The position numbers and the translations under genes were made by a program. The notes beneath the pieces are model-generated. The model was given only the letters and a program-made list of their open reading frames with translations. It searched no databases and had not been told where the DNA came from. A stretch of 64,000 nucleotides of DNA from Callorhinchus milii (Eukaryota). Below are positions 50,001 through 53,000 of the stretch, piece by piece. The stretch is taken from assembly GCF_018977255.1 (NCBI RefSeq), contig NW_024704743.1, positions 11,224,001-11,288,000 on the forward strand, written 5' to 3'. How positions within the stretch are numbered: position 1 is the first letter of the stretch; each line of letters opens with the position of its first letter.

Positions 50001-53000
50001 TGCAAACGAAAAAGAGAACAAACTGAACCAAGATACGAATTAGAGTGCTGTTGTTGACTGTTAGTATGTGTGATAGCAGTCTTACCACCACATGCAGGTG
50101 TGCTCCAAAGCCAGTGGGACCAGGGGCACAGAGGCAACCACAGGAACTGGTCAGAGCAGGAGTTGTACCATGAGGCTTGTACTTACGTCCTTTATTATGT
50201 CAGAAGTTATAGGGACGTTATGCCTATTAATCGCTCCTTCTGATATAATTATGATATTCAGCCTTTTCTTGTTTGCACGGTTCTGAGAGGAAAACAAAAC
50301 CAAACTGAAACTCTTCATAAAGATTCAGACACAGGAAGTACATTCTGTGCTCAATAGTTTCACTCTCTGGGAGTCTCCTCTTGGCTGTGCAACCTACTGA
50401 ATCATCTAAACACTAGTAATTCCCACAATGGCTTTAGAATAGTCTTTCCAAATATGCTGTACATGAAAAAAGTGATCGAAATTGAAGACTGCACCATGAG
50501 TGAAACTATTAGCAGACTGTGCACTCCGTCACTAGACGTGTGCTTTCTTAAAGTACTCACATCCTTAACAAAATCAGAGGAAATTTGTTTTCCATGTCGA
50601 TCATTAGCTCCTTCTGCAACTATGATAATGTTCAACCTGGAACCCCTGGAGCGGCTCTGAAGAATGCAAAGAAATACTGGAACAATGAACACTGAGTAGG
50701 CTGGCTGAGGATAGTTGCTTTAAAGAGGGAGGAGATAGCTGTTCATTCTATATAAAGAAAACTTGCAAAAATGCAAAAGCAGCAAAGCATCTAGTTGCAT
50801 AATTTATTATTGTTTTTCTTGTCAAACTACAGCCAGTTCCTGTTGCACATAAAATGGGTGGAAGAAAAATGAGAATTTTTTNGGTCAGTCGGGTGTTTGA
50901 CACATGCAGAAACCCATCACTATGCTTAAGAGTATCCAAATCAAGCTGAAAATTTCATGCATCCCACCTACACATGGAAATTCCAGAGATAGATTGTTGG
51001 AATGGAATACAACCATAGAGGGACGGAGTTGGAGAGGAAATGCTGATCGATCAGGCTTCTTGACAGAATGCCTAGTGAAAGGGGGAGTGGACCAAAGTAA
51101 CCATCTGTAGTACTCATCCAATACCTGAGCCAGGCAGTACTCCAGGGCATTTTTATTGATTGATCAGCCTGCTAGCTGATCCACAGGACTTTGAAAGGGT
51201 AGATCAATCACAGGGGAAGTTCTTCTCCTTTGCTTATGATAAACCATGTGAGTGAACACAACGATAGAATGGTGGTCATAGCTGCACAGATCATGTGAAG
51301 CTTATCAATGCCTCACATTGATAAGATGGTGTTTTAAGCTGGTTCAATTCCAGCAGTATGTCAAACCTCACTTTAATGCCTTCAATGCCTTGGATTCTGC
51401 CTTTACCCATGTTTTCTAGGTAAAGACAAGTGGTAAACTAGAGACTAAAGCACACAGCAAGGGGTTTCCATGTATGTCCCACCTGTCCAATAAAAATATT
51501 AGAATGATATGAAAGACCAATGTAGTAGGAAAATACTACAGATGAGAAGATCTGGTAAAAGCTTAATAAAGAGTCCGTATTCACCAGTAAAGAGAAGATG
51601 AAGTATTTTTAATAGAAAAAGTTTGAATTGTGAAATGATGTAGAAAGAATTAATGGTGAATATATTTCCACTGGTTGGAGCATCAGCAACAATACTGACC
51701 TTTAAAGGAAATCAGGCATTTGTAAAATGAACATATAAAAGGTTATGTGGAAAGAGCAAGGATATGGAATTTCCTTTTATGGAGTGAGGGAGGGAGCCAG
51801 CATGACACAGACACAACGTGCATAAAGTTTCCTTGTGTAGTGAACGTTTTGAGGATATAGAAGAGCAAAAGAAAAAGATTTGTTTTCTAGAAGCATAGAG
51901 AAATAATTTAGCACACGTTTAATCCACGGCGGCCATGATCATGAAATATTTTGCACTGGCAATTTTAAAAGATCAGCCACAAATCAGGGTAATAATGAAG
52001 CACACTACAACAGGGGTTTTACGACATATAACCTGCAAATATTATTATAAAATTATTAGTGTTCAGCCCAAACTCAAATGCACCGTTCCTGCAATTACCA
52101 AAGTATTCTATAATGCTTAGGAAGTGATAAGTCTTTCAAATGAATCTGGAGCTGCACATCATGCTACATTTTTACCTCTGAAAGTTTTTCACACATCTGA
52201 TCCTCCCAGCCATCTTCCGGAGGAGATTCAGGAATGAATACCCAGTCGGCACCACAAGCCAAGGCACTTACAAGAGCTAAATACCTAGAAGGTTACAAAT
52301 ACGTACATTTCAAAACAATTAAAAGAATTGACTTTGGTAATAAATCTGCTATGATTAAATTTACGATTGTTATATTTATGCTGAAAAAATCATTACAAGT
52401 ATAACATTTGCTTACCCACAATGTCTTCCCATTACCTCCAGCACAAATGTCCTCTGGTGACTGCAAAAGAGAATGTCAAAATCTCAAGATTTATCTTCAA
52501 AACTACTTCCAGCACTAGTAAAAAAATAATGTTGTAATGGGAGGATGGTAATGTTGGTATTTTGGAAGAATGAGATTAATGGGTCAAATAATAATCTTTA
52601 TACAATAATACTAGTAATATTATAGAATTGAAAAAAAAGTGCTTGTACAGACATCCATAGGGCTTGGGTTATGTTGCTCATCTCACTGTTCAAGCACCAA
52701 AGTTATAACCTGTGCTCAGTACCATTTTTTAAATAAATGTTCAATTACATTCAATTGCAGAGACTATGAAGATTGTGCCCGGTTAGAATTATACAGGTTT
52801 TATGCATATTTCGCCCACAAAATACACACACTCTACAGTGTATCCTGTGAAGCGCTTTGAAACGTCTTGAGGATGTGATAAGGTGCTATATCAAATGCAA
52901 AAATCGTTATTATGAGTAGCGATACCCATAATATCCACCCCCCATTCTTCTCCTCTCCTAAACACATTCCAACTTTTTTTTATAATTTTCTGCTGGGAAA

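What the first reader, a model, noticed from the sequence alone, without database searches (positions are those of the whole stretch)
50187..50656. Exon 8a/8b pair alters the basic patch next to the F6P-binding glutamate
Seen: [16 protein letters not shown] vs [16 protein letters not shown], separated by a 278-nt intron (50283-50560). Established: this segment corresponds to E. coli PfkA KGKKHAIVAITE, where K211/K213 contact the allosteric effector and E222 binds F6P. 8b also has SEG where vertebrate PFKs usually have AEG. Inference: the choice of exon tunes effector sensitivity.
Basis: partly seen in the sequence, partly recalled or inferred. Interest (0 to 1): 0.7.

Follow-up and report, generated by a model that had tools for sequence, protein, structure and literature searches.

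The report
Swappable exon pair in fish phosphofructokinase
In this cartilaginous fish the gene for the platelet form of phosphofructokinase, the enzyme that gates sugar breakdown, carries two alternative copies of one exon, one resembling the muscle and liver enzymes and one resembling the human platelet enzyme, so one gene can probably make two differently regulated enzymes.

Summary
Real. The window is elephant-shark pfkp (minus strand). Exons 8a (50656-50561) and 8b (50282-50187) are 96-nt in-frame homologues. Spliced contigs show e7-8a-e9 in one run and e7-8b-e9 in two others; no 8a-8b joint was listed. The pair is in gene models of about 50 fish genera and a caecilian; one amniote-type contig and the human catalogue lack 8a. 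8a keeps the ancestral, PFKM/PFKL-like state; 8b is the human-PFKP-like copy. Fixed differences fall at the E. coli G212/K213 positions (G-S/T versus K/M-K), on the side of effector site 3, and at G273/N. The F6P glutamate and the K214 equivalent are unchanged. The basic patch is at the other end of the strand from that glutamate, and SEG is not diagnostic. New here: a long end-to-end RNA stem is predicted in the 8a-8b intron of both the shark and a teleost, a candidate exclusion or regulatory device. Effector tuning is plausible but untested; I had no residue-level contacts. Both isoforms are already in RefSeq/UniProt, and I found no paper on this pair. The scan earlier noted a 109-nt exon cluster in arthropod Pfk.

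The parts
52416..52462 (-). pfkp exon 6 (constitutive)
   Evidence: tblastn 100% identity; spliced contig of run X1
52176..52284 (-). pfkp exon 7 (constitutive, donor for both 8a and 8b)
   Evidence: joints to 50656 and to 50282
50561..50656 (-). Exon 8a, 96 nt, residues 252-283; ancestral, PFKM/PFKL-like copy (R-G-S-R loop, AEG, G273)
50283..50560 (-). 278-nt intron between 8a and 8b, GT-AG
50484..50513 (-). 5' arm of the predicted long-range intron stem (intron nt 48-77); contains the only YURAY branch-point-like match of the intron (A at intron nt 52, window 50509)
50349..50378 (-). 3' arm of the predicted stem (intron nt 183-212), ending 66-70 nt before the 8b acceptor; core is a 13-nt perfect inverted repeat (50498-50510 with 50353-50365)
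50187..50282 (-). Exon 8b, 96 nt, residues 252-283; derived copy resembling human PFKP exon 8 (x-K-K-R loop, N273)
46700..46792 (-). pfkp exon 9 (constitutive, acceptor for both)
4789..4941 (-). Exon 16a, first of the second duplicated pair of this gene (153 nt); orthologue of the catalogued human PFKP event
   Evidence: human exon in PMC8373072 supplement
1895..2047 (-). Exon 16b, second copy (153 nt)

Best explanation
Exons 8a and 8b are an ancient tandem duplication in the jawed-vertebrate PFKP gene and are used one at a time (shown for the dominant transcripts of three runs). Each encodes residues 252-283 of the catalytic half: the end of a helix, loop 255-258, strand 259-265, the invariant E266, a loop and a helix (model). 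8a keeps the ancestral state also seen in PFKM and PFKL; 8b diverged and is the copy that human PFKP uses (shown by comparison). Exon choice swaps loop 255-257 from R-G-S/T to x-K/M-K, which removes a glycine and moves a fixed positive charge. By homology that loop lines effector site 3, where ATP inhibits and phosphate probably activates, so the most likely effect is a change in sensitivity to ATP or phosphate at that site, with catalysis itself left intact (inferred). The choice differs between samples and is probably tissue-regulated (inferred; tissue labels were coded). A long stem that pairs the two ends of the 8a-8b intron most likely helps to prevent or regulate 8a-8b joining by folding the 8a donor region against the 8b branch-point region (predicted, untested).
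For: Splicing: run X1 has one 2,898-nt contig e6-e7-8a-e9 at depth 664 with no mismatches; X9 (same study, another sample) has e7-8b-e9 at depth 98; X2 (another study) has joints e7-8b and 8b-e9. Annotation: of 33 proteins named for this species, 12 carry 8a, 20 carry 8b, 1 neither, 0 both. Conservation: 119 of the 120 best hits are fish PFKP models holding both copies in the order a-b (50 genera by my count of the listing, including three sharks, sturgeons, bowfin); bichir too; a caecilian has separate 8a and 8b isoforms. Fixed differences in models that hold both copies: position 256 G in 45 of 45 distinct 8a versus M/K/R in 53 of 53 8b; 257 S/T 45 of 45 versus K 53 of 53; 255 R 44 of 45 versus variable; 273 G 45 of 45 versus N 52 of 53; R258 and E266 invariant. 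8a scores best against human PFKL/PFKM (38, 34.6, 31.2 bits versus 21 for PFKP), 8b best against PFKP (31.6 versus 22-24), while the whole 8a isoform is closest to PFKP. G256 in 76 of 83 distant tandem PFKs. Mapping to E. coli K211-H215; K213 is an inhibitor-specific contact and K214/H215 activator-specific contacts in a simulation (10.64898/2026.02.05.704047). Site 3 is the counterpart of the bacterial site and includes T194, next to the R154 equivalent on the same half as exon 8. Stem: pair probabilities near 1 in shark (intron nt 51-77 with 183-208) and teleost L004 (nt 32-56 with 311-334); 0 of 120 and 0 of 60 dinucleotide shuffles reach the observed end-to-end pairing, while two control introns are unremarkable (50 of 120, 34 of 60).
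Against: No kinetic or binding data. No coordinates were available, and none of the papers read lists R253/G254/S255 (PFKL numbering) as site-3 contacts. The K214 equivalent is unchanged and the nucleotide pose differs from bacteria. Strict exclusivity is not shown: 122 of 197 proteins held are models with both copies (a set biased towards two-copy models by the ranking), one model of this species skips both (P0019), contigs drop rare variants, and 48 joints were not displayed. The stem rests on two complete introns with no clear sequence similarity; the test windows were chosen after both stems had been seen; the whole-intron folding z-score is only -1.35; the teleost duplex was matched by 29 of 500 shuffles and is only 5-10 kcal/mol stronger than its neighbouring introns; 8 of 230 same-size tiles of the window hold an inverted repeat of 13 nt or more. 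After folding, about 100-115 nt of intron remain, which is borderline for steric exclusion.
Confidence: 0.6

Rival explanations
1. The functional difference lies in the second variable stretch, loop 267-277 after E266 (G273 versus N, D-R-H-G-K versus variable), and changes F6P affinity, cooperativity or subunit contacts and heterotetramer preference, not the site-3 response.
For: G273/N273 is as diagnostic as the first loop (45 of 45 versus 52 of 53); 8 of the 15 differences in this species fall at 269-281; the loop directly follows the invariant glutamate.
Against: Apart from 273 this stretch varies freely within each class, whereas 256-257 are fixed; no paper read assigns this loop a role.
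Confidence: 0.2
2. The duplication predates the PFKM/PFKL/PFKP split; PFKM and PFKL lost the b copy and amniote PFKP lost the a copy (division of exons between paralogues). The pair would then be a relic of the ancestral vertebrate gene, not a PFKP invention. This concerns history and is compatible with the best explanation on function.
For: 8a resembles PFKM/PFKL and 8b resembles human PFKP.
Against: The same pattern follows from a PFKP-only duplication with 8a retaining the ancestral state; all five named or unnamed invertebrate-type sequences inspected keep G256 and G273 and show one copy; no PFKM or PFKL model with two copies appeared among the 120 listed hits, a biased list.
Confidence: 0.2
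3. The two exons are functionally near-equivalent; the pair persists because both work and splicing happens to use either, or it serves to make inactive both-in or both-out products that lower enzyme level.
For: Many automatic models include both copies and one skips both; at least one amniote-type gene does without 8a.
Against: Both copies are kept intact from holocephalan to teleosts and a caecilian, in both teleost paralogue types, with class-specific fixed residues; different samples are dominated by different copies.
Confidence: 0.12
4. Exclusion works by a distant branch point (A at intron nt 52, too close to the 8a donor), as recalled for alpha-tropomyosin exons 2/3, and the stem only brings that branch point to the 8b acceptor or hides it.
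For: The only YURAY match in the 278-nt intron is at nt 52, 227 nt from the acceptor, and no strong match lies within 75 nt of the acceptor.
Against: No long pyrimidine tract follows it and many AG dinucleotides lie between it and the acceptor; the A is paired in the predicted stem; the teleost intron has its first such match at nt 72 and three more.
Confidence: 0.15

Closest known systems
Human PFKP exon-16 tandem duplicated pair (event 155 of Martinez Gomez et al. 2021, PMC8373072; Lam et al. 2021, PMC7954323)
   Same: Same gene, same kind of event (in-frame homologous exons touching an allosteric site); its orthologue lies in this window at 4941-4789 and 2047-1895.
   Different: That pair is in the regulatory half at the fructose-bisphosphate site (residue 539) and is kept in human. 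The exon-8 pair is in the catalytic half, at the bacterial-type effector site, and is not in that catalogue (all 5 PFKP mentions seen belong to event 155).
PKM exons 9/10 (PKM1/PKM2)
   Same: A glycolytic control enzyme whose allosteric behaviour is set by a choice of homologous exons (passages of PMC7954323).
   Different: PKM is shown biochemically; here nothing is measured. Here one exon mimics the paralogues' sequence.
Human PFKL, PFKM and PFKP structures (8W2G/8W2H, 4OMT, 3O8L, 4XYJ, 4XZ2)
   Same: The 8a isoform model superposes at TM 0.88-0.94, about 79% identity to PFKP; 8a matches PFKL/PFKM 250-281 and 8b PFKP 259-290.
   Different: In human the two loop types sit in different genes; here both sit in one gene.
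Arthropod Pfk duplicated-exon cluster
   Same: Independent exon duplication in a PFK gene (listed for fly in the supplement of PMC9741552; scan note e1-7507046).
   Different: Reported as three 109-nt exons; I did not check which residues they cover.
RNA-pairing-controlled exclusive exons (ATE1 7a/7b, DNM1, Dscam1; FGFR2 IAS2-ISAR stem recalled)
   Same: Long-range intronic pairing near duplicated exons (passages of PMC11802352). The FGFR2 stem also lies in the intron between the two exons (recalled, no call).
   Different: Only one stem, inside the intervening intron, was found; no competing docking and selector pair was found or tested; no experiment exists.

Membership tests
Homologous mutually exclusive exons (tandem duplicated exon substitutions) | Adjacent exons of common origin, equal length and phase | tested here: met
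   96 nt each, phase 0/0, 17 of 32 residues identical
Homologous mutually exclusive exons (tandem duplicated exon substitutions) | Each copy is spliced to the same flanking exons | tested here: met
   e7-8a-e9 in X1; e7-8b-e9 in X9 and X2
Homologous mutually exclusive exons (tandem duplicated exon substitutions) | Both-in and both-out products are rare | tested here: inconclusive
   No such joint listed and 0 of 33 models of this species hold both, but contigs drop rare forms, 48 joints were hidden, one model skips both and many fish models hold both
Homologous mutually exclusive exons (tandem duplicated exon substitutions) | Deep conservation of both copies | tested here: met
   Holocephalan, sharks, bichir, sturgeons, bowfin, teleosts, caecilian
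Homologous mutually exclusive exons (tandem duplicated exon substitutions) | Tissue-regulated use | tested here: inconclusive
   Two samples of one study are dominated by different copies; tissue names are coded
Vertebrate PFKP (platelet-type PFK-1) | Closest to PFKP among the three paralogues over the whole chain | tested here: met
   1420 bits versus 1291 and 1266; exons identical to proteins annotated as platelet type; shares the PFKP exon-16 pair. No tree was built.
Effector-site (site 3) switch | Variable residues align with the bacterial effector-binding loop | tested here: met
   Ungapped alignment to E. coli G208-E222
Effector-site (site 3) switch | Variable residues contact the site-3 ligand in a vertebrate structure | not testable with these tools
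   No coordinates served; not stated in the passages and supplements searched
Effector-site (site 3) switch | Isoforms differ in effector response | not testable with these tools
   Needs enzyme assays
RNA-structure-mediated exclusive splicing | Stable long-range pairing near the exon pair, above chance | tested here: met
   (0 of 120 and 0 of 60 shuffles; windows chosen afterwards); weaker by whole-intron energy
RNA-structure-mediated exclusive splicing | Conservation with compensatory changes across species | tested here: inconclusive
   Two full introns, same position relative to the 8b acceptor, different sequence; a cross-species check through read-through peptides gave 3, 35 and 35 of 100 shuffles for the three expected pairs
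RNA-structure-mediated exclusive splicing | Disruption changes splicing and compensation restores it | not testable with these tools
   Needs a minigene

The most novel reading that the evidence does not exclude
In sharks, bony fishes and amphibians one PFKP gene toggles, by a splicing switch held in place by a conserved RNA stem, between a muscle/liver-type and a platelet-type effector site 3, combinatorially with the exon-16 switch at the sugar-bisphosphate site. Amniotes fixed the platelet type by losing exon 8a, so part of what makes human PFKP differ in regulation from PFKM and PFKL is a frozen splice choice, and the fish isoform pair is a natural experiment for the poorly understood site 3.
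Probability: 0.3. Interest if true: 0.72.

Novelty: new member of a known kind. Interest (0 to 1): 0.52.

Why it matters
Site 3 of vertebrate phosphofructokinase was seen with inhibitory ATP only in 2024 and is proposed to act both ways (PMC11345425). Two natural isoforms that differ in 15 residues of one exon, one like PFKM/PFKL and one like human PFKP, make it directly testable whether this loop sets isoform-specific ATP and phosphate responses. The pair is missing from the human-centred catalogue I checked, so it is an ancient allosteric splice switch that such catalogues miss. The intron stem gives a concrete, cheap test of how the choice is enforced. The kind of event is well known and the isoforms are already in automatic annotation, which limits the surprise.

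Tried and rejected
No whole genome is held for this window, so no genome-wide control was possible. The run search listed no holder on record as RNA; this is not used as evidence, and RNA origin is argued only from GT-AG splice joints. Run X4 covers all 30 bins with no splice joint and looks like DNA; run X2 covers 8a only with an unspliced contig; absence of 8a in X9 is not proof of absence. Pattern scans of viral and prokaryote collections found nothing; the metagenome scan gave 4 loci, of which L002 and L005 begin less than 1 kb before 8b and show no 8a, so they say nothing on its presence. SEG as the functional difference: rejected. 8a as a pseudo-exon: rejected. P0071 looked like an 8a hit but its flanks suggest another paralogue; it and the other unnamed fragments were left out of the counts, which use only models holding both copies. 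The citrate site uses C-half residues K557/D591/K617 (PMC2990764), not exon 8. Rfam: one weak match (E 0.83, far below the gathering score), treated as chance. One weak tandem repeat in 46000-55500. A 15-nt inverted repeat in L002/L005 lies elsewhere (170-185 nt before the acceptor) and could not be tied to the stem. Literature: ten searches; those aimed at this pair found only the exon-16 event. A 2026 fish PFK family paper has no passage on splicing (PMC13564638). One of three supplementary files of PMC4494069 could not be searched and bioRxiv supplements are closed, so a listing of the fish pair there cannot be excluded; subscription papers (Webb 2015, Kloos 2015, Banaszak 2011) were not seen and may give the site-3 contacts. 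No complex prediction was run because the claim is not about protein binding.

Full report
Observation. On the minus strand the window holds two 96-nt exons, 8a at 50656-50561 and 8b at 50282-50187, both phase 0/0 with canonical splice sites, 278 nt apart. They share 17 of 32 residues and 54 of 96 bases, and 11 of the 17 shared residues use different codons. No third copy is in the window.

The gene. The exon peptides match proteins annotated as platelet-type phosphofructokinase of Callorhinchus milii, and those proteins map exon by exon on the window at 100% identity, from exon 3 (60864) to exon 16. Of 33 proteins named for this species carry 8b, 12 carry 8a, one carries neither and none carries both. 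Both isoforms are therefore already in automatic annotation. The whole 8a isoform is closest to human PFKP (1420 bits against 1291 for PFKM and 1266 for PFKL), and its model (mean pLDDT 90) superposes on the human structures.

Splicing. Four runs were laid on 46500-52600. X1 gave one 2,898-nt contig running e6-e7-8a-e9 at depth 664 with no mismatch. X9, another sample of the same study, gave e7-8b-e9 at depth 98. X2, from a second study, gave the joints e7-8b and 8b-e9. All these joints have GT-AG ends. X4 behaved like DNA. No 8a-8b or e7-e9 joint was listed, but 48 lesser joints were not displayed and contigs drop rare forms. So both copies are used, singly, and different samples are dominated by different copies; tissue names were coded. 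Strict exclusivity is not proven: many automatic fish models include both copies (122 of the 197 proteins held, a set biased towards them by the ranking). The same habit affects the catalogued exon-16 pair in this species, so I read these as minor or predicted products; that is inference.

Distribution. A search with the caecilian 8a region matched 3,154 proteins and listed the best 120; 119 of those are fish PFKP models holding both copies in the order a-b, 50 genera by my count, including three sharks, sturgeons, bowfin and both teleost paralogue types. Bichir has both, and a caecilian has separate 8a and 8b isoforms. A teleost contig, L004, shows e6, e7, 8a, 8b, e9 directly, with a 402-nt 8a-8b intron. 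An amniote-type contig, L003 (its 8b peptide recalls chicken PFKP; recalled, not tested), goes from exon 7 through a 426-nt intron straight to 8b with no trace of 8a. The human catalogue of tandem duplicated exons lists only the exon-16 event for PFKP (PMC8373072 supplement, all 5 mentions seen). Loss of 8a in amniotes thus rests on one contig and one catalogue; reptiles and other mammals were not examined.

Which copy is which. 8a scores best against human PFKL and PFKM, 8b against human PFKP. Among models holding both copies (45 distinct 8a, 53 distinct 8b): position 255 is R in 44 of 45 8a and variable in 8b (G 35, D 10, R 6); 256 is G in 45 of 45 against M/K/R in 53 of 53; 257 is S/T in 45 of 45 against K in 53 of 53; 273 is G in 45 of 45 against N in 52 of 53; R258 and E266 never change. 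G256 is present in 76 of 83 distant tandem PFKs and in the invertebrate sequences inspected, so 8a keeps the ancestral glycine and 8b is derived. A basic residue at 257 is common in distant PFKs (61 of 83), so 8b has regained the E. coli K213-type charge that PFKM, PFKL and 8a lack. SEG occurs in 7 of 53 8b copies and in 20 of 83 distant PFKs; it is not part of the switch.

Place in the enzyme. E. coli PfkA aligns without gaps: K211=R255/N, G212=G256/K, K213=S257/K, K214=R258/R, H215=L259/L, E222=E266/E. In the model, 241-254 is helix, 255-258 loop, 259-265 strand, then E266, loop 267-277 and helix 278-289; the basic loop and the glutamate are thus at opposite ends of a seven-residue strand, roughly 25 angstroms apart by standard geometry (inference). 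That E222 binds F6P and K211 binds the effector is recalled; the passages I read did not state it. A simulation preprint gives K213 as a PEP-specific and K214/H215 as ADP-specific contacts in E. coli (10.64898/2026.02.05.704047, passages). In human PFKL, site 3 corresponds to the bacterial effector site, holds ATP in the T state, unwinds a helix and displaces R201 and R292, and holds phosphate in R-state PFKP (PMC11345425, sections 6, 7, 9, 10 read; PMC12203962, passages). T194 is named as a site-3 residue and lies beside the R154 equivalent in the catalytic half, the same side of the site as the exon-8 loop. The citrate site is built from the other half (PMC2990764, passages). Against: the adenosine pose at site 3 is turned about 180 degrees from the bacterial one, the K214 equivalent does not change, and no text I could search lists the variable residues as contacts. 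Effector tuning is therefore the leading inference, not a result.

How exclusion might work. The intron is too long for plain steric exclusion (recalled limit). Its only YURAY match has its A at intron nt 52. A 13-nt perfect inverted repeat is the core of a stem joining intron nt 48-77 to 183-212 with pair probabilities near 1 for most pairs. None of 1,000 dinucleotide shuffles gave a repeat that long, but 8 of 230 same-size tiles of the window do, this one included, and the folding energy of the whole intron is unremarkable (z -1.35). The end-to-end duplex is -50.5 kcal/mol against -14.5 to -37.3 for 9 other introns of the gene (some with approximate ends; one further intron was too short) and 0 of 500 doublet shuffles. 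The teleost intron in L004 has a stem of different sequence, nt 32-56 with 311-334, also with probabilities near 1, ending 68 nt before the 8b acceptor against 66-70 nt in the shark; by duplex energy it is marginal (29 of 500 shuffles; -40.2 against -30.5 and -35.0 for its neighbouring introns). With a position-specific count, chosen after seeing both stems, 0 of 120 and 0 of 60 shuffles reach the observed pairing and two control introns do not stand out. A cross-species check using intron read-through peptides supported pairing in one of three expected cases (3, 35 and 35 of 100). No Rfam family matches. The stem is a fair candidate (about even odds of being functional), of the general kind reviewed in PMC11802352 (passages); whether it blocks 8a-8b joining, hides a branch point or brings regulators together is open.

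What is known. The exon-16 pair of human PFKP is described (PMC7954323 passages and supplement passages; 10.1101/292813 passages; PMC9741552 passage and supplement row), and its orthologue is in this window. Searches for the exon-8 pair found no description; PMC13564638 has no splicing passage; two of three supplementary files of PMC4494069 hold no PFKP. PMC11030362, 10.64898/2026.10.21.760529, PMC10586780 and PMC13746788 were seen as passages only and add nothing on this pair. An earlier scan note describes a three-exon cluster in arthropod Pfk; I did not check it.

Verdict. A real, ancient, spliced pair of homologous exons: a new member of a known kind, already present in automatic annotation but apparently undescribed. 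Its value lies in putting the PFKM/PFKL-type and PFKP-type loops of effector site 3 into one gene, and in a testable intron stem. Existence and alternative use about 0.95; site-3 tuning about 0.6; functional stem about 0.45; interest 0.52.

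Noticed in passing
window 4941-4789 and 2047-1895 (-): Second duplicated exon pair (16a/16b, 153 nt each), orthologous to the catalogued human PFKP event; models of this species combine either 16 with either 8, giving four core isoforms. The 2,741-nt intron between them shows no strong end-to-end duplex (-30.5 kcal/mol).
   Followed up: partly
window 29128-29078 (-): Optional short exon encoding a strongly basic 16-residue insert in the linker between the two halves, present in some models of this species only; other models show a different short insert at the same place.
   Followed up: no
window about 48130-48340 and 50890-51010: Very high contig depth in all four runs, so these are copies of dispersed repeats; the second lies in intron 7 about 240-350 nt before exon 8a.
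   Followed up: no
window 50561-50554, 50186-50179 and L004: The donor sites of 8a (GTGAGTAC) and 8b (GTAAGTAC) are the same in the shark and the teleost over eight or nine bases.
   Followed up: partly
L002 52-66 with 814-828; L005 16-30 with 779-793: 15-nt perfect inverted repeat spanning about 760 nt upstream of a teleost 8b exon, a different position from the shark and L004 stems.
   Followed up: partly
L004 8a-8b intron nt 26-42; proteins P0028, P0040, P0041, P0044: Intron read-through peptides of other fish suggest a shared element 25-45 nt after the 8a donor in both teleost paralogue types, overlapping the 5' arm of the L004 stem; seen only through translation.
   Followed up: partly
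window 2503-2780, 7229-7506, 61439-61716: Near-identical 13-nt hairpin arms 11 nt apart recur at three places, probably a small repeat family.
   Followed up: no
window 50882: The only N in the window, in intron 7.
   Followed up: no
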